In this document: in pieces, positions 1,418 to 53,945 of the stretch
How positions within the stretch are numbered: the first letter of the stretch is position 1
Layout of the letters: each line of letters begins with the position of its first letter
Source of the DNA: a bacterium
Lineage (GTDB): Bacteria > Patescibacteriota > Saccharimonadia > UBA4664 > JBBRNT01
NCBI GenBank assembly: GCA_043767845.1
Contig: JAYUFZ010000016.1
Coordinates: forward strand, 2,523-66,522
DNA: 64,000 nucleotides
Reading direction: 5' to 3'
Translations under genes and position numbers: made by a program
The notes under the pieces: model-generated
The model's input: the letters and a program-made list of their open reading frames with translations, nothing else
The model's database searches: none
Told to the model about the DNA's origin: nothing

Positions 1418-1495
1418 TGTTTCGAATAGAAGGTTACCTTTTTACGCAGAAGAAAGGTAACCTTCTATTTACTTTCGGTATTTGTTTGGTATAAT
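1418..1495 (+). promoter_or_regulatory. dispersed promoter cassette copy A: palindrome AGAAGGTTACCTTT-N11-AAAGGTAACCTTCT (1428-1466) + TTTACT-16-TATAAT; upstream of cmk
   Basis: Near-identical ~80-bp sequence recurs at 27375, 33300 (minus), 41323 and 51035. -10 TATAAT at 1490-1495. Confidence 0.6.
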
Positions 1496-1574
1496 GCATT
1501 GCGGTGTGCTTGACCTAGCTCTTTTTGGTAGGTAGTCTAGCTCTGTTCAATCCATCCCCGACGAAGGGCGTACC

Positions 1575-27374: not shown

Positions 27375-27452
27375 GTTTTCAATCAGAAGGTTACCTTTTT
27401 ACGCAGAAGAAAGGTAACCTTCTATTTACATTCGGTATTTGTTTGGTATAAT
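27375..27452 (+). promoter_or_regulatory. dispersed promoter cassette copy B (palindrome 27385-27423, TTTACA 27425-30, TATAAT 27447-52)
   Basis: Identical to copies A, D and E. Confidence 0.6.
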
Positions 27453-27503
27453 GACCCGCGGCTGATTTTGAGCATGCTAAAATAAGTAAAAGTGGAGGCC
27501 AAA

Positions 27504-31365: not shown

Positions 31366-31484
31366 TGAAGCTCCTTAAGCCTCTCGATGTACAGGAGCCA
31401 CCACTCTAACACAGAATTCATCACGTGTCAATAGATACATCGAGAAGCGAGCAAAACGGCAGGTTCACAGCAGTCGCAAAAGGG

Positions 31485-31509
31485 TACCTTTTCTCCCCTT
31501 AAGAAGGTA
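31485..31509 (+). promoter_or_regulatory. variant palindrome TACCTTTTCTCCCCTTAAGAAGGTA overlapping -35 of a leaderless-type promoter (TACAAT-6nt-ATG); sibling at 35775-35799
   Basis: Two near-identical 25-mers, each upstream of a -10 box placed 6 nt before the ATG. Confidence 0.45.
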
Positions 31510-31532
31510 GGCTTCTTTGTTACAATAAAGTT

Positions 31533-33265: not shown

Positions 33266-33299
33266 AAATTCATTGTAGCACCCCAGCTGTACGAAAAGC

Positions 33300-33377
33300 A
33301 GTATACCAAACAAAAACCGAAAGTAAATAGAAGGTTACCTTTCTTCTGCGTGAAAAGGTAACCTTCTGAGCAATCAG
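33300..33377 (-). promoter_or_regulatory. dispersed promoter cassette copy C (minus orientation; -10 TATACT), drives the SIMPL gene
   Basis: Reverse complement matches copies A/B/D/E with one loop mismatch. Confidence 0.55.
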
Positions 33378-33390: not shown

Positions 33391-34191
33391 ATGAAAAACA
33401 TGGATGAGTTTCAAAAACTAGTGATTGACTATTATTCTCAAAGCGGCCGCCACGACCTGCCTTGGCGGCTTGATGTGTCGACGTATTCGATCGTGATTAG
33501 CGAGGTGATGCTGCAGCAAACCCAAGTGAGCCGGGTAATCCCCAAATACCAAGCCTGGATGGCCGATTTTCCAGATTGGCAGGCTTTGGCTGGGGCTAGC
33601 AACTATCAGATTCTGACAGCCTGGCAGGGTCTAGGCTATAACCGCCGAGGATTGTGGTTGGCTCAGACTGGAAAGACCGTAGCTGATCAGTATGATGGCG
33701 AGCTACCAAATGATCCGGCCGATCTGGTTAAACTCCCTGGAATTGGCCCCAATACCGCCGGGTCAATAGCTGCTTTTGCCTTTAATGTGCCTGTAGTATT
33801 CGTCGAAACTAACATCCGCCGCGTATTTATCCATCACTTTTTCGAGGATCAGGAGGGGATTGATGACAGCCAGTTGCGGCCGTTGATCGAGAAATCACTA
33901 TCCGATCAGCAACCGCGCATCTGGTATTGGGCTTTGATGGATTACGGATCCCATCTGGCGACCCAGCTGCCCAACCCCAACCGCCGCAGCAAGCATTACG
34001 CCAAGCAATCAAAGTTCCAAGGTTCGGCCCGCCAGATACGCGGTGAGGTTTTGCGCCAATTATTAGCTGATTCGAAGTCGCTCGATCAATTGCAGCTCCA
34101 GATCAAAGATGACCGGCTGATCAAGGTCTTATCGGATCTGATGACTGAGGGCATGATCGCGCTTGATTCGGATAACTACCAGATCAAGTAA
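33391..34191 (+). CDS. HhH-GPD DNA glycosylase (MutY/Nth-like), no obvious FeS-cluster cysteines
   Basis: LPGIGPNTAGSIAAFAFNVPVVFVETNIRRV helix-hairpin-helix/GPD loop. Confidence 0.65.
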   Translation: MKNMDEFQKLVIDYYSQSGRHDLPWRLDVSTYSIVISEVMLQQTQVSRVIPKYQAWMADFPDWQALAGASNYQILTAWQGLGYNRRGLWLAQTGKTVADQYDGELPNDPADLVKLPGIGPNTAGSIAAFAFNVPVVFVETNIRRVFIHHFFEDQEGIDDSQLRPLIEKSLSDQQPRIWYWALMDYGSHLATQLPNPNRRSKHYAKQSKFQGSARQIRGEVLRQLLADSKSLDQLQLQIKDDRLIKVLSDLMTEGMIALDSDNYQIK

Positions 34192-34942
34192 GCGGCTTAG
34201 AGCTTGCCCAGATCACATCGTAGAGAGCTTGCATCATCTGGTAATGCTCGGCGGACTTCACCAACAGCGCGTAGCCACTAGCCAGCGAAGAGATATAGAG
34301 CACGCTTTGGTCATACATGAACACCGTGCTGCGGAAGTTGTCGCCGAGGCCGCTGGGCATCATCCGTATCTGGGATTTGTCGTAGAGGGCGGCGATGATT
34401 TTCGGGTCAATCGGCACGCCCCAGAGGTTGCGGGTACTAACCCCTAGATCGTGCCGCAGTTTCACATAGCGGCCCACGAATTCCTCCCCGAGCTGCCAGA
34501 AAAAGTTCGTCGTTGGTACGAGGGTGTCGATGCTGCGGCTGTGGCAGTAGGCGCTCTCCATGATAATGTTTTTGACCGCATCGACCCCTTCATAAAAGGC
34601 CACCTGCGGTTTATGGTCGCCGGCTGGCGACAGCTGGAACTGGGCGACAAATTGGTCGAGATCAGCTTTAGTTTTCTCGATCTGATGCTGCTTTTGAGCG
34701 ACTATGGTTTGCAGCCGTTTGAGCGGCTCTAATCTGAATTTACTACCATCATCCAGCCCGGTCTTGCTCAGCAATCCACGCCGTTCAAGCGAACTGAGGG
34801 CGTAATAGACAGTTGGCCGGCTGCGGCCAGTCACGGCTACAATGTCACGGGCCGCCAAGGCGCCACCAAGCATGGCCAAATACACCTCGGTTTCGGCTTC
34901 GGTGAGGTCTAATGCGGCTAATAGGGCGCGTGGTTCAATCAT
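34184..34942 (-). CDS. TrmB-family transcriptional regulator
   Basis: N-terminal TrmB HTH (LDLTEAETEVYLAMLG…ARDIVAVTGRSRPTVYYALSSLERRGLL). Confidence 0.7.
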   Translation of the reverse strand: MIEPRALLAALDLTEAETEVYLAMLGGALAARDIVAVTGRSRPTVYYALSSLERRGLLSKTGLDDGSKFRLEPLKRLQTIVAQKQHQIEKTKADLDQFVAQFQLSPAGDHKPQVAFYEGVDAVKNIIMESAYCHSRSIDTLVPTTNFFWQLGEEFVGRYVKLRHDLGVSTRNLWGVPIDPKIIAALYDKSQIRMMPSGLGDNFRSTVFMYDQSVLYISSLASGYALLVKSAEHYQMMQALYDVIWASSKPLT

Positions 34943-35034
34943 GTGTCTAATCCTTATTATACATGCTTAACTATTTGCCCGGCTAGATCTATGATGGCAG
35001 TGTTCTTTCACAAGTAGCTCAACAAGGGGGAGTA

Positions 35035-35652
35035 ATGGCTAAGATCAATCTCATGCAGCACTGGGTGGATTTGTTCCCGAATGCAACGGTAGACGCGAGT
35101 TTGCAGGCTTATCGGGACGTCGTGGCTTACTACGGCGAGCCTGGCCGGTATTATCACACGCTGGTGCACATTGCCCCTATGCTTGAGGCGCAGCGTCAGT
35201 ACTTTCCAGATGCGTCCCGGAGTGTTCTGGTGGCCATCTGGCTGCACGACGTCATCTACAACGGCACTCCAGGCCAAGACGAGGCCGATAGCGCCACCTA
35301 TGCCGAGAAACTCGCACTAGAGCTGGGCGAGAGCCAGGCGTTCGCTTCCGAGGTTAGCGCATTGATCTTGACGACCGCTGGGCACATGCCGGCTGACGCC
35401 GCGAGCCAGATGCTCTGCGATCTGGACTTGCTCTCACTCGGCTGTAAGTCGGACACCTACAAGGCCAATACGGCCAAGATCCGCCGCGAGTACAGCCACG
35501 TTTCTGGCTTCCAGTGGCGCATCGGCCGCAAGGCCTTCATCGAGAGCTTTCTTGACCGGCCATTCATCTTCCACGACCCAGTCCTCCGTATCGAGTTCGA
35601 AGCCCAAGCCCGCCGCAACCTCTGCGCCGAGCTGACCGCGCTGTTCGAGTGA
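35035..35652 (+). CDS. HD-superfamily-like hypothetical protein
   Basis: YHTLVH … LHDVIY (H…HD) pattern. Weak. Confidence 0.4.
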   Translation: MAKINLMQHWVDLFPNATVDASLQAYRDVVAYYGEPGRYYHTLVHIAPMLEAQRQYFPDASRSVLVAIWLHDVIYNGTPGQDEADSATYAEKLALELGESQAFASEVSALILTTAGHMPADAASQMLCDLDLLSLGCKSDTYKANTAKIRREYSHVSGFQWRIGRKAFIESFLDRPFIFHDPVLRIEFEAQARRNLCAELTALFE

Positions 35653-35840
35653 TCTGATCCATACAACACAAGCCCCTTGAGATTCAAATCTTTAGGGGCT
35701 GTTAATTATCAGATCAATAAACAAAAAAAGGCCCCCGCGAAGGGGCCTTTCGGCCCACCTATGTCCCAGAACCCTACCTTTTCTCCCCGTGAGAAGGTAA
35801 CCTTCTTTTGGCCGGTCGCTATCTGGGGTAAACTAAGCTT

Positions 35841-36440
35841 ATGATTGTTGTCGATGTCCAAACCAGCGGGCTCAACCCGCGTAAACACTCCATATTGAGC
35901 ATTGGGGCCGTTGAGTTTGAGCATTCCGGGAACACGTTCTACATCGAGTGCCAGGTGGATCCTGATGCGGCAGTCGAGGCTAAGGCCCTCGAGGTGAACG
36001 GCTTTACGGAGGAGCAGATTGTCGACCCAAGTAAGCCGACTTTGAAAGAAGCGCTGGAAAAGTGGCTAGACTGGGCGATTGCGATCCCAGAGCGCACCTT
36101 AGCCGGGCACAACACAGCCTTCGACTACGCCATGCTGGAGGCTGCTTGCCGCAAATACGACCTGGGCTGGCCGTTTGGCAGCCGGACTGTCGATCTGCAC
36201 AGCCTAGCTTATGCCGATTATTACCGCCGCCAGCTGGAGATGCCTAAGCACGGTGGGGCATCGGGCATTACCGCCCCGATGGTGTTTGAATATGTCGGCC
36301 TTGAGCCCGGAACCGGTCCGCTCAACGGACTAGAAGTGGCTAAAAAAGAGGCCGAGGCCTTGAGCCGGTTTATGAGCGGGAAGACGATTATTGCCGAGTA
36401 TGGGAAGTTTGTATTGCCGGAACATTTGAGACGTAGCTAG
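35841..36440 (+). CDS. DEDDh-type 3'-5' exonuclease domain protein (Exo I motif reads D-V-Q rather than D-x-E)
   Basis: VVDVQTSGLN (Exo I), GHNTAFDYAML (Exo II), HSLAYAD (Exo III). Confidence 0.65.
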   Translation: MIVVDVQTSGLNPRKHSILSIGAVEFEHSGNTFYIECQVDPDAAVEAKALEVNGFTEEQIVDPSKPTLKEALEKWLDWAIAIPERTLAGHNTAFDYAMLEAACRKYDLGWPFGSRTVDLHSLAYADYYRRQLEMPKHGGASGITAPMVFEYVGLEPGTGPLNGLEVAKKEAEALSRFMSGKTIIAEYGKFVLPEHLRRS

Positions 36441-40318: not shown

Positions 40319-40347
40319 ATTGACAAAAGCATAAGTATAATGTATAA
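40319..40347 (+). promoter_or_regulatory. consensus sigma-70 promoter TTGACA-17-TATAAT
   Basis: Read directly. Followed by about 310-nt leader before the next RBS. Confidence 0.6.
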
Positions 40348-40658
40348 TACTTCTCGTTCAAGTTGAGGTAACTTAATTTGACGCTCCTTACAGGCTCGGT
40401 TTAGTTTCCTGGTATTGCACCACTTATAGCTCCTCCAGTACAAATCCTGTTTTTTTGTACGCGCCCGAATGGCTAAAAACTTGTTTTGTTCGCTCGCCAT
40501 ATACCCCATATATGCCTTGCTCGCAAAAGCAGCTTTTTATCTCATCCGGATCATCGTCCAAAACTAACATGTTTTGTACTGGAGGAGCTAACCCAACTAA
40601 GTGGTGCTATTCCGGGAAACTATCGTGGGTTTCCCAACACACCCCCACAGGAGGGGCT

Positions 40659-41149: not shown

Positions 41150-41257
41150 CCCACCGCCCAACCCCGTCCACTGTCCATCACCCGCAAGGGTCCCAAGCTT
41201 CCGGAAGTTCCGGACTGCGCGCCCCTCGATTCACTTCGAGGGGCGCTTTGCTTTTCA

Positions 41258-41283
41258 GCACGCAGAACAAAGGTTACCTTCTC
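41258..41283 (+). repeat. half-copy of the cassette palindrome (CACGCAGAACAAAGGTTACCTTCT)
   Basis: Matches loop plus one arm of the 39-bp palindrome, 50 nt upstream of full copy D. Confidence 0.45.
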
Positions 41284-41322
41284 AAGTTCATCCTCGAACC
41301 TGAAAAGCAGCCCAAGTTCAGC

Positions 41323-41400
41323 GTTTTCGAATAGAAGGTTACCTTTTTACGCAGAAGAAAGGTAACCTTCTATTTACATTCGGTATTTGTTTGGTATACT
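41323..41400 (+). promoter_or_regulatory. dispersed promoter cassette copy D (palindrome 41333-41371, TTTACA, TATACT) upstream of dnaG-rpoD
   Basis: Identical to other copies through the -10. Confidence 0.6.
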
Positions 41401-41424
41401 GTACAGCACTGGTATACTAAGGAT

Positions 41425-43212
41425 ATGGACGAAGTAGAGGAAATTAAAAGCCGGCTCGAAATAGCCGAGGTGGTGGGCGGATACTTGCAGCTCAAGCAAG
41501 CTGGCCGCAACCTTAAGGCGCCGTGCCCCTTCCATCAGGAGAAGTCGGCTAGCTTTATGGTAAGCCCCGAGAAAGGGATTTACCATTGTTTTGGCTGCGG
41601 CGAGGGCGGCGATATCTATAAATTCGTCATGAAGATGGAAGGCTTGGATTTTCGGGGTGCTCTTGAGCTATTAGCCAGAAGAGCTGGGGTTGAACTCAAG
41701 AGCCGAGGGGGAGCCCCGAAGCAGAGCAATGAGCGGCTGTACGAGGCGCTAGAACTGGCCGTTAAATACTTTCAGGCCAGCCTGGTCAAGAATCCCACAG
41801 CTCTCGAGTATGTCATCAAAAAGCGCAAACTCACCAAGCAGACAGTCAAAGACTTCGGCATTGGCTATTCACCCGACTCCTGGAATGCGTTAACCGATTT
41901 CCTGCGCAAGCGAGGCTTTAGCGTCGATGAGCTGCTCAGGGCTGGGCTGGCCGGCCAAAAGTCCGGCCGCGACAATATCTACGACCTTTATAGAGGAAGG
42001 CTCATGTTCCCCATTTACGACCCCCAGGGACGGTGTGTGGGCTTTACGGGTCGTGTACTCGATGATAGTCTCCCAAAGTACCTCAACACCCCTCAAACTG
42101 TCTTATACGACAAATCTAGAGCCATATTTGGCCTGCATTTGGCCAAAGAGGCTATTAGGACCAAAGACGAGGTCATTTTGGTCGAAGGTAACATGGACGT
42201 CGTCGCTAGCCATCAAGCTGGCGTTAAGCAGGTGGTGGCTGCCAGCGGTACGGCTTTGACGCTCGATCAGCTCAAAACGCTCAGCCACCTGACCAAGAAG
42301 GTTAAGTTATCTTTCGATGTCGACCGGGCGGGAATGGCGGCCACCGAGCGGGCTATTCCTCTCGCTCAAAAGTTAGGCCTCAACCTCTACGCCGTCGAGA
42401 TCAAAGATGCCAAGGATCCAGATGAGCTGATTACCACAGACGTGAAGCTTTGGGAGAAGGCTATATCTGGGGCCAAGGAGATCAGGGAATACTGGTACGA
42501 GCGATCTCGGCTTGAATACAGCATCGATGATAATCCGTCTGGCATCGACAAAATCCAGTTCGTGAAGCGTATGGCCACAATACTCGCGCTTTACTCAGGT
42601 GACGAGCAGCAAGTGTTCCTTAAGCACATGGCCGGCCAGACCGGTATAGATGCCAGCGATTTTGAGGCCGCTATTGCTTCCAGCGACGAGAAGTTTTCAC
42701 CGACCCGCAGCTCGTCGCCGACTTCATCGGCCAATGCCTCGGCGCCTATCGCGGCATCTGAAGACGCGCCAGCCACTCGGCAATCAATGCCCCAGCAACG
42801 TCTCCTGGAAACCTCCTTCTTAGCACTCAACCTAACCACCCCCGAAGCCCGCCTGAGCCTCGAAGACATGAGCGCTGACGATTTTGAATCTGAGCAGCAT
42901 CAGGCAATATTTGCGGCCCTTTCAAAGCGCGGCCGGAAGGCCACCATGGCCGATATTGTAAAAGACTTGCCAGAACTAGCTGATTATGTCAAAATCCTTT
43001 CATTAAAGGGCGAAGAAGAATATGCCAATGTGGCCCCGGCGGACCGGAGCTTCGAAGCCTTTACCCTAGCGCATACCCTCAGGCAGCTAGCCAGCAAGAC
43101 CAGCATGAAACAATTAACCAAACAATTGCGCGAAGCCGAAGCATCTGGTGACGCGCAGTTAATACGTTCGCTACTCAACGAATATCAAGCATTGATCAAA
43201 GAGGAGAAGTAA
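41425..43212 (+). CDS. dnaG: DNA primase
   Basis: Zinc-binding CPFHQEKSASF…YHCFGCGEGGD, TOPRIM region. Confidence 0.95.
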   Translation: MDEVEEIKSRLEIAEVVGGYLQLKQAGRNLKAPCPFHQEKSASFMVSPEKGIYHCFGCGEGGDIYKFVMKMEGLDFRGALELLARRAGVELKSRGGAPKQSNERLYEALELAVKYFQASLVKNPTALEYVIKKRKLTKQTVKDFGIGYSPDSWNALTDFLRKRGFSVDELLRAGLAGQKSGRDNIYDLYRGRLMFPIYDPQGRCVGFTGRVLDDSLPKYLNTPQTVLYDKSRAIFGLHLAKEAIRTKDEVILVEGNMDVVASHQAGVKQVVAASGTALTLDQLKTLSHLTKKVKLSFDVDRAGMAATERAIPLAQKLGLNLYAVEIKDAKDPDELITTDVKLWEKAISGAKEIREYWYERSRLEYSIDDNPSGIDKIQFVKRMATILALYSGDEQQVFLKHMAGQTGIDASDFEAAIASSDEKFSPTRSSSPTSSANASAPIAASEDAPATRQSMPQQRLLETSFLALNLTTPEARLSLEDMSADDFESEQHQAIFAALSKRGRKATMADIVKDLPELADYVKILSLKGEEEYANVAPADRSFEAFTLAHTLRQLASKTSMKQLTKQLREAEASGDAQLIRSLLNEYQALIKEEK

Positions 43213-44372: not shown

Positions 44373-44451
44373 TACAGCTAGGATTGCAAACACTAATGCT
44401 TACAGAGAATACTTATGGTAAATTTAGAACAATTTTAAGCGAATTGTAACA

Positions 44452-44805
44452 ATGATTGAGCAAGTATCAGTGAAAAAGTCCATTCCTATATCAGTTCAGA
44501 TTCTCTATGCATTGGGAATAATAGGGTTAATCTTCGGCTTGGTATTATCAACTGTATTTTTTGCTTTCCTTGGTCCAATACTATCTGTCGGCCTTGGTGC
44601 CATTAGCATCTTAGGCTTTGTACTGATAAACAAAATCCATTCCGGAAAACGGTGGGCGTTGACTATCTACACGGTGTTAGTGTCGCTTAATAGTATCCAG
44701 ACACTCGCCGCTAACCCATATACAATCCAATCCTACTTAGTTGCCTCACTTCCGATAACCCTATTGGTGGTTATATGGGTTAAAGACAAGGCTTATTTCA
44801 GCTAA
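44452..44805 (+). CDS. small membrane protein (4 TM), hypothetical
   Basis: Hydrophobic ORF. Confidence 0.4.
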   Translation: MIEQVSVKKSIPISVQILYALGIIGLIFGLVLSTVFFAFLGPILSVGLGAISILGFVLINKIHSGKRWALTIYTVLVSLNSIQTLAANPYTIQSYLVASLPITLLVVIWVKDKAYFS

Positions 44806-44952
44806 ATCCAAACCTCTTCCGGCTCGAGCTTAGGCATGGAAGACGGCCGCACGGCGTCGCAGCTATCGAGATGGGTCTCCTCCCAGAGGCGAGATGGCTA
44901 TTAAAATTGACAAAACAGCGAAATAGTGTATAATGTATACTTATCGTCAGAA

Positions 44953-45429
44953 ATGGCGCGTTCCAGATCTCTCAATCTGCCCCTCTACCCAAAGGAGGCC
45001 TCCGTGGCCTACATCACCGTCACCCGCTACATCCCGGTCCACCCTGTGAGCCGCAAGCCCGTCAGCAAGAAGTATCCAGTCAGCTCCAAGAGACTGGCCA
45101 AGATCGGCCGCCGCGTGTTCAACACTGTGGGCTGGAACCTCATGATGAAGGTGCCGGTCGTACTCGACCTTGAGGACCTCACCGTCGACCTCATTTCGGC
45201 TCCCCGCGGTTCGATCAGTGGCCAAGACTTTGAAGTCACCCTAATCGTGGCCTCCGACGATGCCCTGCGGGTCTTTGACAGCGACTCCCCCAAGGAGCAG
45301 ATGGACGACATGGCCGAAGCCATCGCCCTGGCCTTGTTCCTTAAGGTCCCGCGCCATCTGTGCTACCACGTCTGGGTCCGTGCTTTGGGCCTTACCGGCT
45401 ATTGCCGGATGGATCCCAAAGACTGTTAG
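44953..45429 (+). CDS. hypothetical protein
   Basis: TTGACA-16-TATAAT promoter at 44907-44935. Terminator CCGCCTACCC…GGGTAGGCGG at about 45455-45490. Confidence 0.4.
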   Translation: MARSRSLNLPLYPKEASVAYITVTRYIPVHPVSRKPVSKKYPVSSKRLAKIGRRVFNTVGWNLMMKVPVVLDLEDLTVDLISAPRGSISGQDFEVTLIVASDDALRVFDSDSPKEQMDDMAEAIALALFLKVPRHLCYHVWVRALGLTGYCRMDPKDC

Positions 45430-45523
45430 CAAGTTCTTGTCCAGCCGCCCACCAACCGCCTACCCCTAACCGGGTAGGCGGTTTTGCGTTGCAATGAAAA
45501 ATAGCCCCACCGGGTTGGTGGGG

Positions 45524-46114
45524 CTAGGAGGGGATCATGAGCGCTTGCTTCAGCCAGGCAGAGAGGTTGCCCCAACGCTCCGGGGCGATGGCCAGCTTCA
45601 TGCGGCGTTGGCCAAGCCATGAGCCAGAGATGACTACCTGTCCGTAAGTTTGACCCCTGAGCTCGAGGCTTTTCAGGACAAGCGTGGCATCGGCACCGGG
45701 TATATGGTGGAGTTCGGCAAGGCAGTTGGGTTTTTCGCTTGGTGCGATCATTCCCCCGAGGTTCTCGTAGAGGAAGCGTATGCGCCCATCATTGTTGTTG
45801 TAGGGCTGCAAGAAGACAAGCCCTGGCGCTATGGATATGAGGTCACCGATCTGTTGTTCTCGCCACTCCGGACGATTATACCCGTAGTTGCTCTTTGCCC
45901 ATCTCTCGACATGATCGAGATCGGTGCCGAAAAATGGCTCTAGATCGATTTCATGGCCGCTGAGTCTGCGCAGGCTTGGCGGGCGCATGGTTTCGGTGGC
46001 GAAATGCTCAAGTAGCATCTGGGTAGCTGCCGGATTCCAAGTCCGCACATTGGTGCCGTGCTGGTACCAGAGCCCTCGGAGTAGTTCGTCTGGGTCGGGG
46101 AGGGTGATTGGCAT
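45524..46114 (-). CDS. hypothetical protein
   Basis: ORF. Minus-strand terminator hairpin AGCCCCA…TGGGGCT at 45497-45520. Confidence 0.4.
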   Translation of the reverse strand: MPITLPDPDELLRGLWYQHGTNVRTWNPAATQMLLEHFATETMRPPSLRRLSGHEIDLEPFFGTDLDHVERWAKSNYGYNRPEWREQQIGDLISIAPGLVFLQPYNNNDGRIRFLYENLGGMIAPSEKPNCLAELHHIPGADATLVLKSLELRGQTYGQVVISGSWLGQRRMKLAIAPERWGNLSAWLKQALMIPS

Positions 46115-46135
46115 GTCAAATTCCTATCCGTTGGG

Positions 46136-46771
46136 CTAGCTGGTCAGCGCGGCGGTGAGGTCTTGTGGGGAAATGGTGATGCGCAGGGTGTAGAACTGCC
46201 AGATTGTATCCAGTAGACCCATATTGCGCTGTTCCTCACTCTCTTTGGACGAGTAGAGCTGGTTGGAATCCCAGCACTTCGCTTGCAGTTGCTCGGTGGA
46301 CAAACTGGAGGGTGCTTTCATATCGGTGCAATATGGGGGCTTGCTGCGAGTCGGCACAAACTCCAGTACCGGGTTGGACTGGAAATTGCCCTGTTTCCAT
46401 TGCAGTTCGGTTCGGCTGATTTCTAGCTCAGTAATCTGGCCTTTCACTTCGAGCATCAGGATCAGGTTATCGGACAAGCCGATACCAGTATTCTTGGCAT
46501 TGAACAGGTGCAAGTGGGGGTTTGATCCACCGCCGATAGTGCCGACCGAAATGTCCTGCTTGCCGCTGGTCGGAATACCCAGCCTGCTGCTGAAATACTC
46601 TCGGCTAATGCTCACAGTCTTGGTCGGGAAGGTCTCGGGCTTGGCCTGAGCGTTTTGGCTAACTCCCAAGATCCATCCGGCGGTCATAATGACCAGGGCG
46701 ACGAGTGGCACAATCAGCCAGTCGAGAGTGTAGTAGGCGGCCTCACGGACCACTTTCCATAGCTTTGTCAT
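46136..46771 (-). CDS. hypothetical membrane-anchored protein
   Basis: N-terminal TM. AGGAA RBS. Confidence 0.4.
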   Translation of the reverse strand: MTKLWKVVREAAYYTLDWLIVPLVALVIMTAGWILGVSQNAQAKPETFPTKTVSISREYFSSRLGIPTSGKQDISVGTIGGGSNPHLHLFNAKNTGIGLSDNLILMLEVKGQITELEISRTELQWKQGNFQSNPVLEFVPTRSKPPYCTDMKAPSSLSTEQLQAKCWDSNQLYSSKESEEQRNMGLLDTIWQFYTLRITISPQDLTAALTS

Positions 46772-46889
46772 GTCAAATTCCTATCTGTCGATCGGGTGGG
46801 GCGATAATAGCATAATTTACTAGGTCCGTCACCCGGGTCGTCTTTACAAAGCAGAAGCCCCGCCGGATGGCGGGGCTTGGTGGACGGGG

Positions 46890-47300
46890 TGGACGGTGTT
46901 TCTGGTAGTTGGGGTTACCATCCTCGTGGGTGGTGCATCCGCAGACGCTGCACTCGGAGCGGGCGAAGCAGTCCTAGCCGATGGTCTTGTCCCAGACGTG
47001 CCAGCCTTACTTGAAACGGCCCAGAACGGCATTCTGCCCGTTGTGCGGACAAGGTACAGTTAGTGCGCCAAGTAGGCTATGGGCGGTCTCGATGTCGATC
47101 GGCATCCGGCGCATTGGCGGCGCTTCGGGGTTAAACCGCTTGGCCATGGCCACGTATGTTTCGCCCTGGTAGAGGGCGACCCACAGTTTGTGGTCTCGGA
47201 GTGGTGTGGTGCGGCCGAAGCGTTGGGCGGAACAAGACGGGGGTCATGGAACCTTTCAAGGGCAGTAGGCGGTCTCTGGGCATTGTGTCCAGGTGCATAG
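46890..47300 (-). pseudogene. possible decayed gene remnant (protein-like segments interrupted by in-frame stops; Cys-rich CSVCGC…PCPHNG pieces)
   Basis: Minus-strand translation gives …ALYQGETYVAMAKRFNPEAPPMRRMPIDIETAHSLLGALTVPCPHNGQNAVLGRFK*…*DCFARSECSVCGCTTHEDGNPNYQ. No intact ORF. Confidence 0.2.
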
Positions 47301-47377
47301 AACGCATATACAATAACATAAGTAGTATAAAGTCAATAACATTCTCGATTGAAGTCAACAAAAAGCCCCACTAGATT

Positions 47378-47719
47378 CTAATGGGGCGGCGGGTCACAGA
47401 GCGTGGCCGAGAGTGCTTGGAGGCTGGGCGAAAGGCGTTGGGCGGTTTGGTGTGCTCCCGGGCCGCTATAGCTGAGAGCTATCTTGAGGCCTACGCCTTG
47501 TTCGAGACTGGTGCAGTCGATCTTGATCTGGCTGGTTGACGTCGGGCCTGCAGCGCTGGGCTCCGTGAGCTGGTGATCACTTGGTGTGTGGCTGAAGGCG
47601 ATGAGAATTGCCCAGAAGCTCAAGATAACCACGAGAGCGATGGGGGCGATCAAGCGCTTAGAGATCTGAAAACTGATGCGGATGTGCTGGGTGCGAGTGC
47701 TACTGGCCAGGTCTGTCAC
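47378..47719 (-). CDS. small membrane-anchored hypothetical protein
   Basis: ORF followed on the minus strand by terminator GCCCCATTAGAATCTAGTGGGGC-TTTTTG (47362-47395). Confidence 0.4.
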   Translation of the reverse strand: MTDLASSTRTQHIRISFQISKRLIAPIALVVILSFWAILIAFSHTPSDHQLTEPSAAGPTSTSQIKIDCTSLEQGVGLKIALSYSGPGAHQTAQRLSPSLQALSATLCDPPPH

Positions 47720-48090
47720 AGTCCTTCTTTCATACCCGTGTCTCTGGAGGTCTCAGATTGCAGCTCGATAGTGCCTTATTCGGTGCTAAGTGTCAACATT
47801 ATCTACAATTTGTCAGTAAGAAATATTGCATTAATCCGATAAATATGTTACGGTCATATAGGTTGTCCATCTAGTTCGTTCCGACATAGGGAGGTTAACC
47901 TCACTTCAGCATTATTTTCGTCACCCTGGCGCAAATCATACCCATGAGGAGTATATGACCCCACGAAACTAGGGTTTCCGGCTTCAAATCTGCAGTAAAC
48001 CGCTCAGATTAGACATATAAAGCCGGTTGCCCGCACCAATCCACCTAGAGAGTAGGCAAAGCGTCTGCTCCAACGATATCTCTAAGGAGA

Positions 48091-48786
48091 ATGATGCGGC
48101 AATCAATACAATTCAAACAAGGCCAGAAGCGATTCTGGTCGATTAGCGTGCTGCTCGCAGCACTCATCAGCTTCACCGGCCTGGGTATTTCTCCGGCCAA
48201 AGCCTATGTAGACGAGTCACAGCCAACGGCTACCCAAGCGGTATCCCAACCTGTCGGCCCGGTCCTTGCTCGGCCCGAACCCATGGGCCTCCATGGTAGC
48301 CAAGATGCGGAACTAGCTGCGCTTGTCGAGCCAACTCCTGCGCTCACCGAGCCAGAAGTACCTTTTACCAAGGCCACACTTGAGCTAGCAGCCCAGATCA
48401 GCCCACCTGGAAAAATAGAGTCGCAATCCTTTCTAAAGGGGAGTGGTTCAGCTGGCATTAAGCAGATCATCCTAGAAGAATTTGCAGGAACAGGCGCGGG
48501 GAGTAAGGCTATTCGCGTTGCTCAGTGCGAGTCTACCCTCAATCCGAAGGCGCGGCATGTAAATAAGGCGGTCTTGATCAGGATTGGCAAGAGCAAGAAA
48601 AAGCTCGTTCGCAAGATCACGGTCGACCTTGGTCTCTTCCAGCTCAATGATGGCGGCACTGCGCAGACCCTTCTCAGGCGATTGGGTTACAGCTGGGACG
48701 CACTCTTCAACGCGCGTCTTAACGCTCGGATGGCTCGATCGCTCTGGAACGAGACCCATTCATTTGCACGCTGGACGTGCGGATGA
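48091..48786 (+). CDS. secreted lytic transglycosylase-like (lysozyme-like/SLT) domain protein
   Basis: Signal peptide. QCESTLNPKA…DLGLFQLND resembles the SLT ES…GLMQ(I/L) catalytic block. Confidence 0.5.
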   Translation: MMRQSIQFKQGQKRFWSISVLLAALISFTGLGISPAKAYVDESQPTATQAVSQPVGPVLARPEPMGLHGSQDAELAALVEPTPALTEPEVPFTKATLELAAQISPPGKIESQSFLKGSGSAGIKQIILEEFAGTGAGSKAIRVAQCESTLNPKARHVNKAVLIRIGKSKKKLVRKITVDLGLFQLNDGGTAQTLLRRLGYSWDALFNARLNARMARSLWNETHSFARWTCG

Positions 48787-48831
48787 GTACAGTGGATATG
48801 TACACGCACAAATCCTGAGGAGGTGAAAAGC

Positions 48832-49092
48832 GTGGAGAAGCCAATCAGTACTCCCGTTGCAAGAAATGTGGCATTGCAGAAATCGATCACCGATTACCTG
48901 CGCCGCTATAGTCAAGTGCCTGGTATGCGCCGGACAGCCCGTATTGTCCACGCTTTTGCCAAATCCGCTTCCCGCGATCAGATTGTGGCTCAACTCGAGC
49001 TCATGACAGATACGGGCACCATCGAAACCAACGGCTTCGGACGCTACCAGCTAGCTGACGATCCGGACGATCAATTATGCGAGGCCGTCTAA
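48832..49092 (+). CDS. small hypothetical protein
   Basis: GTG start with GAGGAGG 8 nt upstream. Confidence 0.35.
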   Translation: MEKPISTPVARNVALQKSITDYLRRYSQVPGMRRTARIVHAFAKSASRDQIVAQLELMTDTGTIETNGFGRYQLADDPDDQLCEAV

Positions 49093-51034: not shown

Positions 51035-51112
51035 GATTTCGAATAGAAGGTTACCTTTTTACGCAGAAGAAAGGTAACCTTCTATTTACATTCGGTATTT
51101 GTTTGGTATAAT
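51035..51112 (+). promoter_or_regulatory. dispersed promoter cassette copy E (palindrome 51045-51083, TTTACA 51085-90, TATAAT 51107-12) upstream of polA
   Basis: Identical to other copies. Confidence 0.6.
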
Positions 51113-51158
51113 GCTTTTTTCGGGTTTCAGCGAGTTGCTGGGCTGGTATACTTAACGC

Positions 51159-53945
51159 ATGAGTAAAAAACCACTTCTCGTCCTTATAGACGGCAGCGCT
51201 ATCTTCCACCGCGGCTACCACGCCATCCCGCCAACCTTTACCAATAAAGCTGGCCAGCCGACCAATGCCATTTATGGCTTTACCATGATCCTGCTGAAAG
51301 TTCTGGCCGATCTGTCGCCTAAGTACGCCGTAGTGGCGTGGGATATGCCCGGCGGCACCTTCCGTGATGACCTTTACGACCAGTACAAGGCGACCCGTAG
51401 TGCCACGCCGGACGATCTGAAGGCCCAAATGCCATACGCTCGAACTGTCACAGAGGCCCTCGGCATTAGCTTCGTGGAGCTATTCAAGTATGAAGCCGAT
51501 GACATCATAGGTACCTTCGCTGCGCAGGCTCATCACCAGAAAGAGCAGCTCGAGACTATCATTATCACAGGCGATAAGGATCAGCTGCAGCTCATAGACG
51601 AGCAAACCAGAGTCTTTTTGTATCGGCCGGTGGGCACCGATCCTATCAAGTACGATCTGGAAAAGATGCAGGAACGCTATGGCCTGACCCCGAAACAGTT
51701 CATTGACCTGAAGGCGCTGATGGGCGACTCCAGCGACAATATTCCGGGCGTAGCTGGCGTTGGCGAGAAGACGGCCATGACCATGATGGCCTCCTATGGC
51801 AGCCTGGATAATATCTATGCCCATGTCGACGAACTGAAGGGCAAACTCCAGGAACGGATGCTCGACCAAAAGGACATGGCCTATCTATCTCTTGAGCTTT
51901 CTCGGATTGCTTTGGACGCGCCGGTGAAGCTGGATATGGAGCAGGCTCGGCTGGGAACGGCCAAGAAGGAAGAGCTGATCGAGCTATTCAGGGAACTTGA
52001 TTTCAGGAGCCTGCTAGCTAAGCTACCCTCTGCTATCCATGCCGATGAGGCCGAGCTAGCGACTATTAGCGCCCAATCATCGGTCATCAGCGGTATGCCT
52101 AGCCTGTTTGGTGATGCTCCAGTGGTGGTACGCGACCGCCCACACCTCAAGACCGCCAAATATCATACCGTAGCTACCGAAGCTGATCTGGAAAAGCTGG
52201 CTGCTGAGCTGAGTAAGCAAAAAGTCTTTGCTTTTGATACCGAGACCACCGGCCTGGATGTCCTCACCGCTGATCTGGTGGGCATGAGCTTTAGTTTCAA
52301 GGCTGAGGAGGCATATTATGTGCCTGTAGGGCATGCTGGCAGTGATCAGGTGCAATTATCCAAACAAATGGTGCTACAAGCATTGAAACCAATTCTGGAG
52401 AATCCAGCCATCGGTAAGGTGGGGCACAATATTAAGTACGACTTCGAGATAATGCTGCGCCAGGGAGTTCGTCTGGGCAATGTGGCCTTCGACACTATGG
52501 TGGCCGCCTTTATCGTCAATCCGCTGGGCCGTACACAATCGCTCGATGACCTAGCTTCCAGCGAACTCGGGGTGGAGATGATTCCGATCTCGGAGCTGAT
52601 CGGCACCGGTAAGCAACAGCTCAACTTTTCTAATGTCTCTATCGAGCAAGCGACGACCTACGCTGCCGAGGATGCCGATATGACCTGGCGATTGTACGAG
52701 CTACTTGCGCCACAGATCCCAAAAGGCGGCTATGAACGGCTGACAGGCGATATCGAGTGGCCGCTTATTCCCGTTTTGGCCGACATGGAAATGGCTGGTA
52801 TTGAGCTGGATTCGGACTTCTTGGCTAAGTTCAATAAGGTCATTTCCAGGCGTATTCTGGAGCTCGATGAGCTGATCTGCGAGGCCGCCGGGGAGCGCTT
52901 TAATATAGCCTCGCCTTCGCAACTGTCGCGCATTCTCTTCGAGAAGCTAGCACTTACGGCAATAGGGGTTAAAAAAGGCAAAACCGGCACTATGTCGACA
53001 GCCGCCGGCGAGCTGGAGAAGCTTAAGGGCCAGCACCCCATCGTTGATCTGATATTTGAATACCGCGAACTAGCCAAGCTCAAGAACACCTACGTCGACG
53101 CCTTGCCGTTGATGGTTGGCGAGGATGGCCGGGTACATACCAGCTTTAACCAAACAATTGCCCAAACCGGCCGACTCTCATCGACCAATCCCAACCTGCA
53201 AAACATTCCGGTGCGTAGCGAGCTTGGTCGCGAGATTCGTAAGGCTTTTGTGGCCCCGAAGGGTAAAGTGCTCATTAGCGCCGACTATTCGCAGATCGAG
53301 CTGCGCGTGGCTGCCTCGCTATCTGGTGATAAAGCGATGATTAAGACATTTACCGATGGTATTGATCTGCATCAGCAGACAGCCGCCGAGCTCTATGGAG
53401 TACCACTTGAAGAGGTGACTAAGGAGCAGCGCTACAACGCCAAAACTATCAATTTCGGGGTGCTCTACGGCATGAGCCCACACGGGCTGAGCGTGGCTAC
53501 CGGGATGACCCGAGAGGAGGCGGTTGGCTTCATCGAACGCTACTATGAACTGCGGCCGAAGCTGAAGTCCTACATCGAGGGGATCAAGGCCGACGCCCGT
53601 AAAAACGAGTACGTTGAGACGCTCTTTGGCCGCCGCCGCCCCTGCGCTGAGATTAATTCTAGCAATTCTTTGATCTCCAACGCTGCTGAGCGCATGGCTG
53701 TGAACGTGCCAATCCAAGGTACCGCCGCCGATATTATGAAGCTAGCCATGGTAGCCCTAGCTCCGAAGCTGACTGGTGAAAATAAGCTCCTGCTCCAGAT
53801 ACACGATGAATTGATAGCTGAAGTCCCGGCCGATCAAGCCGATGCGGTGACCAAGATTATGAAAGACACTATGGAATCAGTTTATGATCTGGGCGTGAAG
53901 ATCGAAGTAGACACTGCCGTGGGCAAGAACTGGGGAGAGCTGTAG
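51159..53945 (+). CDS. polA: DNA polymerase I
   Basis: 5'-3' exonuclease N-terminus, 3'-5' exo, and polymerase motifs (RRxAKxxNFGxxYG, HDE). Confidence 0.95.
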   Translation: MSKKPLLVLIDGSAIFHRGYHAIPPTFTNKAGQPTNAIYGFTMILLKVLADLSPKYAVVAWDMPGGTFRDDLYDQYKATRSATPDDLKAQMPYARTVTEALGISFVELFKYEADDIIGTFAAQAHHQKEQLETIIITGDKDQLQLIDEQTRVFLYRPVGTDPIKYDLEKMQERYGLTPKQFIDLKALMGDSSDNIPGVAGVGEKTAMTMMASYGSLDNIYAHVDELKGKLQERMLDQKDMAYLSLELSRIALDAPVKLDMEQARLGTAKKEELIELFRELDFRSLLAKLPSAIHADEAELATISAQSSVISGMPSLFGDAPVVVRDRPHLKTAKYHTVATEADLEKLAAELSKQKVFAFDTETTGLDVLTADLVGMSFSFKAEEAYYVPVGHAGSDQVQLSKQMVLQALKPILENPAIGKVGHNIKYDFEIMLRQGVRLGNVAFDTMVAAFIVNPLGRTQSLDDLASSELGVEMIPISELIGTGKQQLNFSNVSIEQATTYAAEDADMTWRLYELLAPQIPKGGYERLTGDIEWPLIPVLADMEMAGIELDSDFLAKFNKVISRRILELDELICEAAGERFNIASPSQLSRILFEKLALTAIGVKKGKTGTMSTAAGELEKLKGQHPIVDLIFEYRELAKLKNTYVDALPLMVGEDGRVHTSFNQTIAQTGRLSSTNPNLQNIPVRSELGREIRKAFVAPKGKVLISADYSQIELRVAASLSGDKAMIKTFTDGIDLHQQTAAELYGVPLEEVTKEQRYNAKTINFGVLYGMSPHGLSVATGMTREEAVGFIERYYELRPKLKSYIEGIKADARKNEYVETLFGRRRPCAEINSSNSLISNAAERMAVNVPIQGTAADIMKLAMVALAPKLTGENKLLLQIHDELIAEVPADQADAVTKIMKDTMESVYDLGVKIEVDTAVGKNWGEL

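What the first reader, a model, noticed from the sequence alone, without database searches (positions are those of the whole stretch)
41258..41400. Dispersed ~80-bp operator+promoter cassette (5 full copies and a half-site) in front of unrelated core genes
A 39-bp element (14-bp perfect inverted repeat AGAAGGTTACCTTT / AAAGGTAACCTTCT around a conserved 11-nt loop TTACGCAGAAG) is fused to an identical -35/-10 promoter (TATTTACATTCGGTATTTGTTTGGTATAAT). About 10 conserved upstream bases (TTTCGAATAG) are also shared. It occurs at 1418-1495 (cmk), 27375-27452 (MBL hydrolase), 33300-33377 on the minus strand (SIMPL protein), 41323-41400 (dnaG-rpoD, plus a half-site at 41258-41283) and 51035-51112 (polA). 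Independent promoters do not normally share identical spacer sequence. Identity through the -10 and divergence immediately after it therefore suggest either a mobile promoter-carrying miniature element or a strongly constrained regulon operator plus promoter for a global regulator. Two variant 25-mers (31485-31509, 35775-35799; TACCTTTTCTCCCC-K-T-R-AGAAGGTA) sit at the -35 of two leaderless-type promoters.
Basis: seen in the sequence. Interest (0 to 1): 0.72.

Follow-up and report, generated by a model that had tools for sequence, protein, structure and literature searches.

The report
Copied operator-plus-promoter module in Saccharibacteria
A tiny-genome Saccharibacteria bacterium carries at least five near-identical copies of an 80-base palindrome-plus-promoter module, each pasted in front of an unrelated core gene that already had its own promoter; this fits the known "mobile promoter" class, so it is a tidy example rather than a new kind of system.

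Summary
Five copies of a ~79-bp module lie at 1418-1496, 27375-27453, 33299-33377 (minus strand), 41323-41401 and 51035-51113. They are 94-100% identical to each other, and no shuffled sequence gives any match. There is also a truncated copy at 41258-41283 and two diverged relatives at 31478-31516 and 35768-35806.

Each module has two parts. The first is a 39-bp inverted repeat whose arms are each a near-perfect 15-bp palindrome (AGAAGGTNACCTTCT), with centres 24 bp apart. Two bases downstream sits a near-consensus sigma-70 promoter (TTTACA-16-TGGTATAAT).

The organism is an orphan Saccharibacteria lineage. Relatives, including one with the same gene order, have the same genes behind simple leaderless promoters. 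They have no module and no motif. In the window those native promoters survive downstream of every copy, so the module is a lineage-specific add-on.

Loop and spacer are conserved, which means the copies arose by copying and not by convergence. I found no terminal inverted repeats, target duplications, transposase, REP tag, Rfam hit, or phage or plasmid match.

Best reading (0.5): a duplicated operator-plus-promoter module that adds a second, probably repressor-gated, promoter to a replication- and repair-biased gene set. The main rival (0.25) is a selfish hairpin element. It meets the published definition of putative mobile promoters, so it is a new member of a known kind.

The parts
1418..1496 (+). 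Copy c1. Inverted repeat at 1428-1466. Promoter: -35 TTTACT at 1468-1473, 16-bp spacer, TGG + -10 TATAAT at 1490-1495. It lies 79 nt upstream of the cmk ATG (1575) and 48 bp from the start (1380) of a divergent minus-strand gene.
27375..27453 (+). Copy c2. Inverted repeat at 27385-27423. Promoter TTTACA-16-TATAAT at 27425-27452. Downstream operon: MBL-fold hydrolase, TMEM175, AlkD-type DNA alkylation repair enzyme, PMT. A canonical terminator of the upstream gene lies at 27323-27343, and the native TGCTAAAAT promoter plus a GGAGG ribosome-binding site lie downstream.
33299..33377 (-). Copy c3, the most diverged copy with 4 substitutions. Inverted repeat at 33329-33367. Promoter runs from 33327 to 33300 (TTTACT-16-TATACT). 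It points into the SIMPL/YggE-like gene (ATG 33265), whose native leaderless -10 TACAAT is at 33277-33272. The same repeat covers the -35 position of the divergent HhH-GPD glycosylase promoter (-10 TACAAT at 33379-33384, ATG at 33391).
41323..41401 (+). Copy c4, the finding's own coordinates. Inverted repeat at 41333-41371. Promoter TTTACA-16-TATACT at 41373-41400. It lies upstream of dnaG-rpoD.
41258..41283 (+). Truncated copy made of the loop plus the right arm (CACGCAGAACAAAGGTTACCTTCTCA). It abuts the T-tract of the upstream terminator (41219-41256). It has no left arm and no promoter.
41410..41427 (+). Native leaderless dnaG promoter, TGGTATACT followed by 6 nt and then the ATG at 41425. 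It is retained 12 nt downstream of the module. dnaG is preceded by the same -10-plus-6-7-nt-plus-ATG arrangement in several other Saccharibacteria loci.
51035..51113 (+). Copy c5. Inverted repeat at 51045-51083. Promoter TTTACA-16-TATAAT at 51085-51112. It lies upstream of polA and a cyclase gene. It is identical to c2 over 69 nt.
51144..51161 (+). Native leaderless polA promoter, TGGTATACT followed by 6 nt and then the ATG at 51159. It is retained 34 nt downstream of the module.
31478..31516 (+). Diverged relative of the inverted repeat (AAAAGGGTACCTTTT-CTCCCCTTA-AGAAGGTAGGCTTCT). It ends 4 nt before the -10 TACAAT (31521-31526) of the leaderless yjbR-NUDIX promoter (ATG 31533).
35768..35806 (+). 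Diverged relative of the inverted repeat. Its right arm, 35792-35806, is the perfect 15-bp palindrome AGAAGGTAACCTTCT. It lies 22 nt upstream of the -10 TAAACT (35829-35834) of the leaderless RNase_T/DEDD exonuclease gene (ATG 35841). It shares the loop TTCTCCCC with the 31478 element.

Best explanation
This is a lineage-specific family of copied operator-plus-promoter modules in a Saccharibacteria (CPR) chromosome.

Shown:
- The ~79-bp unit is a perfect 14-17-bp-stem inverted repeat. Each of its two arms is a near-perfect 15-bp palindrome (AGAAGGTNACCTTCT), with centres 24 bp apart.
- Two bases downstream there is a near-consensus extended -10 sigma-70 promoter.
- The copies descend from one another. 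Loop and spacer are identical, a truncated copy keeps the loop, and an older sub-family shares a different loop.
- Every copy sits in promoter-upstream intergenic DNA, points into the downstream gene, and lies 12-37 nt upstream of that gene's own promoter. For dnaG, polA, SIMPL, yjbR and the exonuclease, that native promoter is the leaderless type also found in relatives that lack the module.

Inferred:
- The palindromic arms are the operator of a dimeric DNA-binding protein, probably a repressor. The diverged sites sit at about -24, -31 and -42 relative to inferred start sites, and these positions overlap core promoters.
- The module therefore adds a second, strong, gated upstream promoter on top of basal leaderless expression. 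Its transcripts would carry 5' leaders of roughly 18-73 nt.
- This wires a gene set biased towards DNA replication and repair (dnaG-rpoD, polA, HhH-GPD glycosylase, the AlkD operon, a DEDD exonuclease, yjbR-NUDIX, cmk) to one signal.
- The module spread by duplication or gene conversion. The mechanism is unidentified. The promoter hexamers were tuned afterwards at individual loci.
For: - Repeats are real and non-random. An independent read assembly breaks at them.
- The promoter is among the top consensus matches in the 20 kb scanned, at 11/12 and 10/12 with a TG extension.
- Each arm is self-palindromic, and 35792-35806 is a perfect 15-mer. There are 20 matches at 3 or fewer mismatches against 2.0 expected. 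By my classification 14 of these belong to the elements.
- All 8 element occurrences lie in intergenic promoter regions.
- Native promoters are retained downstream of every copy. Relatives carry leaderless dnaG and polA promoters and no module.
- A syntenic relative, GCA_038230095.1, has the same gene order but no motif in 37 kb.
- Copying, not convergence: loop 1 change in 55 cells, spacer 1 in 80, arms 0 in 140.
- Four of the 6 substitutions fall in the -35 and -10 hexamers (Fisher p=0.0095). All four allele combinations occur, which points to gene conversion or parallel tuning.
- DNA replication or repair transcription units carry the element in 4 of 6 cases, against 5 of 43 for the others (p=0.007; the classification was made post hoc by hand).
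- The repeat lies upstream of the promoter and downstream of canonical terminators. It is therefore a DNA-level element and not part of the mRNA.
Against: - No expression or binding data exist. Promoter activity, the start site and protein binding are all inferred.
- No cognate regulator is identified. The PadR and two TrmB-like genes have no site at their own promoters.
- The two arms are exact reverse complements of each other, including the central base and the asymmetric flanks. Two independent dimer sites do not need this, and it fits a hairpin-recognising enzyme better.
- The motif is not conserved at orthologous promoters in any relative.
- The repair enrichment is post hoc, and the region is rich in repair genes anyway.
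- Only 64 kb of one genome could be examined. Orientation is informative for only 3-4 copies.
- Which left flank pairs with which right flank across identical copies rests on the deposited assembly.
Confidence: 0.5

Rival explanations
1. The element is a selfish, non-autonomous hairpin element, REPIN- or PATE-like. In this reading the 39-45-bp hairpin is the recognition structure of a single-strand transposase (Y1/HUH, RAYT or IS200/IS605-type) encoded elsewhere in the genome. The promoter is cargo, or the part that makes insertions tolerable. Copies survive only where they do no harm, that is, upstream of genes and in the sense orientation.
For: - The two arms form a perfect inverted repeat, 14 of 15 as reverse complements against 11 of 15 as direct repeats (sequence). 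The DNA fold is -16.5 kcal/mol with z=-4.9.
- Like REPINs, the unit is a doublet of small palindromes.
- Two sub-families of different age plus a truncated copy look like bursts followed by decay.
- There are no target duplications or terminal inverted repeats, as expected for IS200/IS605-type mobilisation.
- The family is lineage-restricted and has no homologue elsewhere.
Against: - No transposase, RAYT or integrase is found in 64 kb.
- There is no GTAG or CGTC tag, and the location is upstream of genes, whereas REPs lie mostly downstream or between convergent genes (PMC3733652).
- The 3' border falls exactly after a functional -10, and the 5' border is fuzzy.
- The element is enriched at replication and repair genes.
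- The diverged copies have been integrated into native promoters in different registers.
Confidence: 0.25
2. This is an ordinary regulon. The operator and promoter arose independently at each gene and are kept identical by selection alone, for example because a regulator and sigma factor contact every base.
For: The palindromic arms recur at promoters. The arms carry no substitutions at all.
Against: - Identity also covers the 11-nt loop and the 16-nt spacer.
- A second sub-family has a different loop, so the loop sequence is not required.
- The truncated copy keeps loop bases.
- The motif is absent from orthologous promoters in a syntenic relative.
Confidence: 0.04
3. The repeats are an assembly or binning artefact. 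Either they were created or misplaced by the assembler, or the contig is a chimera joined at repeats.
For: c2 and c5 are identical over 69 nt, so short k-mers cannot link their flanks. The rpoD-polA spacing differs from relatives.
Against: An independent k=31 assembly of SRR23617225 contains the unique-flank-to-module junctions: the left flank of c4 and the right flanks of c1 and c5. It is 100% identical to the window. The copies differ by private substitutions. A module of about 80 bp is shorter than a typical sequencing read.
Confidence: 0.03
4. The hairpin acts at the RNA level, or as a terminator or insulator. In that case it would end upstream transcription, or form a structured RNA.
For: The simple terminator scan flags the c2 hairpin.
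Against: - Only 5 of 16 stem pairs are G-C, and the tail is ATTTACATTC, so there is no U-tract.
- c2, c4 and c5 already have canonical G+C-rich terminators just upstream.
- c1 and c3 lie between divergent genes, where nothing needs terminating.
- Rfam gives no match.
- The hairpin lies upstream of the module's own promoter.
Confidence: 0.03

Closest known systems
Putative mobile promoters (PMPs; Matus-Garcia, Nijveen & van Passel 2012, PMC3488235)
   Same: It meets the operational definition exactly: highly similar upstream regions of 50-100 nt, at least 80% identical, in front of non-homologous genes within one genome. Those authors found more than 4000 such families. One example is a 10-member Treponema family with 95% identity over 84 nt.
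   Different: PMP is a descriptive class with no set mechanism. This family has an explicit internal anatomy (a double palindrome plus a complete promoter). It stops before the start site and does not run up to the start codon. It is stacked on top of retained leaderless promoters. It occurs in a CPR genome, and I do not recall CPR genomes being in the completed-genome set surveyed in 2012.
Correia repeat-enclosed elements (Neisseria) and ERIC elements: miniature transposons that carry promoters
   Same: These are short dispersed intergenic repeats that supply promoters to neighbouring genes (cited in PMC3488235).
   Different: Correia elements have terminal inverted repeats, a TA target duplication and promoters at their termini (my own knowledge). 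Here I find no terminal inverted repeats and no target duplication. The promoter is complete and internal to the 3' half of the unit.
REP and REPIN elements mobilised by RAYT transposases (PMC3733652, PMC8049555)
   Same: Both are small palindromes arranged as an inverted doublet that can fold into a longer hairpin. Both form sequence populations within one genome.
   Different: There is no GTAG or CGTC tag. The copies lie upstream of genes, not downstream or between convergent genes. No RAYT is seen in the window. The element carries a promoter.
Stress regulons built on a shared palindrome or promoter motif: LexA/SOS boxes, Deinococcus RDRM/DdrO, mycobacterial RecA-NDp/PafBC (from my own knowledge, not tested here)
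   Same: It works like them in outline. A 15-bp palindrome at the promoters of polA, a glycosylase, an exonuclease, an alkylation-repair operon and dnaG would allow co-induction on top of basal expression.
   Different: The motif sequence matches none of those boxes. No regulator is identified. The sites are copies of one module, not independently evolved boxes. The motif is not conserved in related genomes.
IS-element outward-facing or hybrid promoters
   Same: In c4 the 3' end of the module (TTGGTA) also supplies a -35-like hexamer 16 bp upstream of the native -10. IS ends do the same.
   Different: There is no IS, and the module carries its own complete promoter.

Membership tests
Putative mobile promoters (PMC3488235) | Upstream-region similarity of at least 50 nt at 80% identity or more within one genome | tested here: met
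   69-79 nt with 65-69 of 69 identical in every pairwise comparison.
Putative mobile promoters (PMC3488235) | Downstream coding sequences are non-homologous; only the promoter is duplicated, not the gene | tested here: met
   The downstream genes are cmk, an MBL hydrolase, SIMPL, DnaG and PolA, which belong to different Pfam families. Flanking sequence is unalignable.
Putative mobile promoters (PMC3488235) | The repeat is not also inside coding sequences and is not the terminal repeat of a transposase gene | tested here: met
   All significant nhmmer profile hits in the window are the five copies or the known partial and diverged elements, which I place in intergenic DNA from the ORF list. No transposase domain is found in the window.
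MITE / Correia-type miniature transposon | Terminal inverted repeats at the two ends of the element | tested here: not met
   The best end-to-end match is 7 of 12 over all plausible boundaries. The inverted repeat is internal, not terminal.
MITE / Correia-type miniature transposon | Target-site duplication flanking each copy | tested here: not met
   No pair of boundaries gives a flanking direct repeat of 2 nt or more in at least 3 of the 5 copies.
MITE / Correia-type miniature transposon | A cognate autonomous element or transposase in the genome | not testable with these tools
   Only this 64-kb window of a 67,997-bp contig is available. None is present in the window.
REP / REPIN (RAYT-associated) | A 20-40-bp palindrome carrying an unpaired GTAG or CGTC tag at one end (PMC3733652) | tested here: not met
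   The bases flanking the stem are ATAG, TCAG or CTCAG on the 5' side and ATTTAC on the 3' side. There is no GTAG or CGTC on either strand.
REP / REPIN (RAYT-associated) | Location predominantly downstream of genes, between unidirectional or convergent ORFs | tested here: not met
   All copies lie upstream of a start codon, and two lie between divergent genes.
REP / REPIN (RAYT-associated) | An inverted doublet able to fold into a long hairpin | tested here: met
   A 17-bp stem with an 11-nt loop, -16.5 kcal/mol, z=-4.9.
Transcription-factor regulon operator (SOS/RDRM-like) | A palindromic motif recurring at promoters more often than chance | tested here: met
   AGAAGGTNACCTTCT at 3 or fewer mismatches gives 20 matches against 2.0 expected. 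By my classification 14 of them lie in the 8 intergenic elements.
Transcription-factor regulon operator (SOS/RDRM-like) | Motif conserved upstream of orthologous genes in related genomes | tested here: not met
   AAGGTNACCTT does not occur in the syntenic 37 kb of GCA_038230095.1. It is also absent from L001 and from the dnaG/polA upstream regions printed for the other Saccharibacteria loci. The nearest relative has only 64% PolA identity, so this test is weak.
Transcription-factor regulon operator (SOS/RDRM-like) | An identified cognate regulator that binds the motif | not testable with these tools
   There are candidates only. The yjbR promoter carries a diverged element. Two TrmB-like genes lie in lineage-specific insertions. 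None has binding data.
Intrinsic terminator | A G+C-rich stem followed directly by a T/U tract, at the 3' end of a gene | tested here: not met
   The stem has 5 G-C pairs of 16 and the tail is ATTTACATTC. Separate canonical terminators precede c2, c4 and c5.
Any curated RNA family (Rfam 15) | A match at or near the gathering score | tested here: not met
   The whole-window gathering search finds only a tRNA. The permissive search of 41200-41450 gives only a chance PyrG_leader hit, at 22 bits against a gathering score of 65, and it lies on the neighbouring terminator.

The most novel reading that the evidence does not exclude
A CPR bacterium with very few regulators has assembled a stress regulon for DNA replication and repair by copy-pasting a single operator-plus-promoter module in front of genes that otherwise use leaderless promoters. 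A newly acquired DNA-binding protein would gate the module. Candidates are one of the two lineage-specific TrmB-like proteins, or the YjbR/MmcQ-family protein whose own promoter carries the element. De-repression would switch dnaG-rpoD, polA, glycosylase and exonuclease mRNAs from the leaderless to the leadered form. That would be regulon birth by promoter propagation, caught in the act.
Probability: 0.12. Interest if true: 0.7.

Novelty: new member of a known kind. Interest (0 to 1): 0.45.

Why it matters
If the module is active, it is an unusually clean natural example of regulatory rewiring by promoter copying. The donor unit, its borders, the retained ancestral promoters and an 'empty' syntenic relative are all visible. 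It affects essential genes (primase, the primary sigma factor and DNA polymerase I) in a reduced epibiont genome whose regulation is almost unstudied.

It also gives a concrete 15-bp palindrome to use as bait for finding a Saccharibacteria regulator. And it yields a testable prediction: these genes should produce both leaderless and leadered transcripts.

If the module is merely a selfish repeat, it is still a useful warning for assembling and binning such genomes, because contigs break at every copy.

Tried and rejected
- **Exact and degenerate pattern scans of public collections.** The 39-mer arms gave 0 hits in 185,579 GTDB species genomes. The JGI metagenome scan gave one unrelated AT-rich contig, L081. 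IMG/VR gave 0 hits. blastn against the phage and plasmid collections gave no match. An nhmmer profile of the 5 copies against all 84 fetched loci gave nothing outside this organism.
- **Strain-level presence/absence test.** This was not possible. The next-best PolA in 5.8 billion proteins is only 64% identical.
- **Extending the census beyond the window.** This failed. Several window proteins are not on record, and the read-assembly contigs stop at each copy.
- **Link to a restriction-modification system.** The core contains GGTNACC, which I recall as the BstEII site. I rejected the idea because GGTNACC is not avoided elsewhere: 18 sites outside the elements, against about 10 expected for the whole window.
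- **Terminator and RNA readings.** Rejected.
- **Integron attC, invertible promoter and uptake-sequence ideas.** Rejected on anatomy. The element lies upstream of essential genes, the inverted repeat encloses only 11 nt, and the copy density is low.
- **Autoregulatory sites at the TrmB-like and PadR genes.** None found.
- **Published Patescibacteria LexA motif.** The paper (PMID 28618189) is not held in the library, so I could not compare.
- **Consistent target-site duplications.** Some by-eye matches (CCGCG at c2, CAGC at c4) did not survive a systematic test.
Full report
**1.

The 39-bp element AGAAGGTTACCTTT-TTACGCAGAAG-AAAGGTAACCTTCT occurs five times with at most one mismatch. The positions are 1428, 27385, 33329-33367 (minus strand), 41333 and 51045. 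No match is expected by chance.

The adjoining 30-mer TATTTACATTCGGTATTTGTTTGGTATAAT occurs at the same five places with 0-3 mismatches.

An alignment with flanks shows that identity ends one base after the -10 (TATAATG). On the 5' side it fades about 10 bp before the repeat. Over the 69 nt from the repeat to the -10, the copies share 65-69 identical bases. c2 and c5 are identical.

The simple promoter scan ranks the module's TTTACA-16-TATAAT, with its TG extension, at 11/12 (c2) and 10/12 (c4). These are among the best promoter matches in the 20 kb scanned. The spacer is 16 bp, not 17.

As single-stranded DNA the element folds into a 17-bp stem with an 11-nt loop (-16.5 kcal/mol, z = -4.9).

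**2. Finer anatomy**

Each arm is itself a palindrome. The consensus is AGAAGGTNACCTTCT, and it occurs perfectly at 35792-35806. At three or fewer mismatches there are 20 matches against 2.0 expected. By my classification 14 of them belong to eight intergenic elements. The two arm centres are 24 bp apart.

Besides the five full copies there are three more elements:
- **A truncated copy at 41258-41283.** It keeps the loop bases ACGCAGAA as well as the right arm.
- **Two diverged elements at 31478-31516 and 35768-35806.** They align in register with the whole 39-bp repeat, but share a different loop, TTCTCCCC.

The substitutions among the five copies are distributed as follows:

| Segment | Substitutions / cells |
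|---|---|
| Arms | 0 / 140 |
| Loop | 1 / 55 |
| Spacer | 1 / 80 |
| -35 and -10 hexamers | 4 of the 6 substitutions in total |

The hexamer changes are TTTACA to TTTACT in c1 and c3, and TATAAT to TATACT in c3 and c4. Their concentration in the hexamers gives Fisher p = 0.0095. All four allele combinations occur.

Identity in the loop and spacer, together with a second sub-family that has a different loop, means the copies are related by descent and not by convergence. The hexamer pattern suggests later tuning or gene conversion.

**3. Not an assembly artefact**

PolA of the window is on record from an NCBI contig of 67,997 bp and from a Logan assembly of run SRR23617225. Three Logan contigs are 100% identical to the window. 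Their ends fall at 1470 (c1), at 35780 and 41354 (the 35768 element and c4), and at 51084 (c5). The overhangs of about 30 nt inside the module are what a k=31 graph gives at a multi-copy sequence.

This shows that flank-to-module junctions exist in the reads for c1, c4 and c5. The pairing of left and right flanks across identical copies rests on the deposited assembly.

**4. Organism and context**

RpoD-based retrieval places the window in Saccharibacteria. The best hit has 77% identity (L001). The closest PolA anywhere is 64% identical, so this is an orphan lineage.

Genes downstream of the full copies are cmk, an operon of MBL-fold hydrolase, TMEM175, AlkD and PMT, a SIMPL/YggE-like gene, dnaG-rpoD, and polA with a cyclase gene.

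Other placements:
- c3 also covers the -35 position of the divergent HhH-GPD glycosylase promoter.
- The diverged elements sit at the leaderless promoters of yjbR-NUDIX and of an RNase_T/DEDD exonuclease.
- c2, c4 and c5 are each preceded by a canonical G+C-rich terminator of the upstream gene.

The hairpin therefore lies in untranscribed DNA, between a terminator and a promoter.

**5. The module is an add-on**

In this window many genes start 6-7 nt after a TANNNT box, that is, from leaderless promoters. Such a promoter is still present downstream of the module at three genes:
- dnaG: TGGTATACT, 6 nt, ATG at 41425
- polA: TGGTATACT, 6 nt, ATG at 51159
- SIMPL: TGCTACAAT, 6 nt, ATG at 33265

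Leadered native promoters are recognisable downstream of c1 and c2.

In L001, and in several other Saccharibacteria loci, dnaG and polA are preceded by the same -10, 6-7 nt, ATG arrangement, with no repeat upstream.

A relative with the same gene order is available: GCA_038230095.1, contig JBBRNT010000001.1. Its order runs TMEM175, yjbR, SIMPL, then HhH-GPD, RNase_T, SDR, then dnaG, rpoD, then polA, then Fpg, holA, DHH. It has leaderless promoters at yjbR, SIMPL, the exonuclease and dnaG. It has no AAGGTNACCTT anywhere in 37 kb and no comparable repeat family. Its dnaG intergenic region is 51 bp, against 275 bp here.

The elements are thus a gain in this lineage, stacked 12-37 nt upstream of pre-existing promoters.

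**6. What it is not**

- It has no Rfam match.
- It has no phage, plasmid, viral-contig, GTDB-representative or JGI-metagenome homologue.
- It has no terminal inverted repeats and no target-site duplications.
- No transposase, RAYT or integrase domain occurs in the window.
- It has no GTAG or CGTC tag and does not show the downstream location typical of REPs (PMC3733652).
- It has no U-tract, so it is not a terminator.
- GGTNACC is not avoided elsewhere, so a restriction-site explanation fails.

**7. How it most likely works**

Shown: copied modules, promoter-like, palindromic, in promoter position, added to native promoters.

Inferred: the 15-bp palindromes bind a dimeric protein. The diverged sites lie at about -24 (yjbR), -31 (HhH-GPD) and -42 (exonuclease) relative to inferred start sites. 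In the module the proximal site is centred near -43, directly abutting the -35. These positions fit a repressor.

The module would then give each target a strong, gated upstream promoter producing leadered mRNA, in addition to basal leaderless transcription. In c4 the two promoters overlap. The module's TTGGTA serves as a -35-like hexamer for the native -10, so occupancy of one probably excludes the other.

Transcription units that contain strict DNA replication or repair genes carry the element in 4 of 6 cases, against 5 of 43 for the rest (p = 0.007). This classification was made post hoc, by hand, so it is suggestive only.

Candidate regulators, none of them tested:
- **The YjbR/MmcQ-family protein.** Its own promoter is overlapped by an element.
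- **The two TrmB-like proteins.** Both lie in insertions that are absent from the syntenic relative.

**8. Main rival**

The arms are exact reverse complements of each other, 14 of 15, against 11 of 15 as direct repeats. The family shows sub-families of different age and a truncated member. The lack of terminal inverted repeats and target duplications is what IS200/IS605- or RAYT-type single-strand transposition would leave.

A selfish hairpin element whose promoter makes sense-oriented upstream insertions tolerable therefore remains plausible (0.25). Only the complete genome can decide, through a census, orientation statistics, and the presence or absence of a Y1/HUH transposase.

**9. Comparison with what is known, and verdict**

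The family satisfies every operational criterion of 'putative mobile promoters'. These are defined as 50-100 nt at 80% identity or more, upstream of non-homologous genes. More than 4000 families are known, in 1043 genomes (PMC3488235). It resembles Correia/ERIC promoter-bearing repeats and REPINs only in part, and it fails their defining features.

It is therefore a new member of a known kind. Its unusually legible structure, and its position upstream of dnaG-rpoD and polA in a CPR genome, make it moderately interesting (0.45). It is not categorically new.

Noticed in passing
window 3771-3811; also 13405-13421, 13477-13493, 63512-63528: A second palindrome family, AAAAGGTCWGAYCTTTT, has 5 sites against 0.15 expected. 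At 3771-3811 two sites form a perfect 17-bp inverted repeat with a 7-nt loop. Their centre-to-centre spacing is 24 bp, the same as in the module's repeat, and the half-sites are related (AAAGGT/ACCTTT). This pair ends 3 nt before the phosphoglucomutase ATG (3814). The other sites lie between convergent genes. The Logan contig L084 ends inside this element.
   Followed up: partly
window 40320-40348 and 44907-44934: Two perfect 12/12 sigma-70 consensus promoters (TTGACA-16/17-TATAAT) share extra sequence: ATTGACAAAA ... GTATAATGTATA ... CTTNTCGT. They precede unrelated hypothetical genes. This may be a second small 'promoter reuse' pair.
   Followed up: partly
window, many gene starts (e.g. 5736, 6335, 9107, 16327, 29501, 31533, 33391, 35841, 37421, 41425, 51159, 57301): Leaderless architecture, an extended -10 TGNTANNNT followed by 6-7 nt and then ATG, is common at gene starts in this genome. 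The same arrangement precedes dnaG and polA in several other Saccharibacteria loci and in the syntenic relative.
   Followed up: partly
window 44400-51030 and 34184-35652: Two insertions are lineage-specific relative to the syntenic relative GCA_038230095.1 and to L001. One is about 6.8 kb, lies between rpoD and polA, and holds hypothetical proteins, an SLT lytic transglycosylase and a TrmB-like regulator. The other is about 1.5 kb, lies between the HhH-GPD and exonuclease genes, and holds a second TrmB-like regulator and a hypothetical protein. Each contains a TrmB-like gene and ends next to a repeat element.
   Followed up: partly
window 17729-17758 and 22453-22482: A 30-nt direct repeat, GCCAGGGCGGAGCCGAACTTTGWGGGTTCG, is 97% identical between two intergenic spots about 4.7 kb apart (family D17).
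   Followed up: no
window 27492-36440 and 51159-58236: There is a dense cluster of DNA-repair and nucleotide-sanitising genes: AlkD, an HhH-GPD glycosylase, a DEDD exonuclease, several NUDIX genes, Fpg, PolA, HolA and a SIMPL/YggE-like 'oxidative stress defense' protein. This raises the background for any claim of repair enrichment.
   Followed up: partly
L085 11848-11886 and 13271-13309 (relative GCA_038230095.1): The relative has its own 39-nt repeat, 100% identical between two copies. It is a G+C-rich terminator-like hairpin (CCCCGCCGCCCAGATGGGCGGCGGGG) and lies beside the SIMPL and ADSL genes.
   Followed up: no
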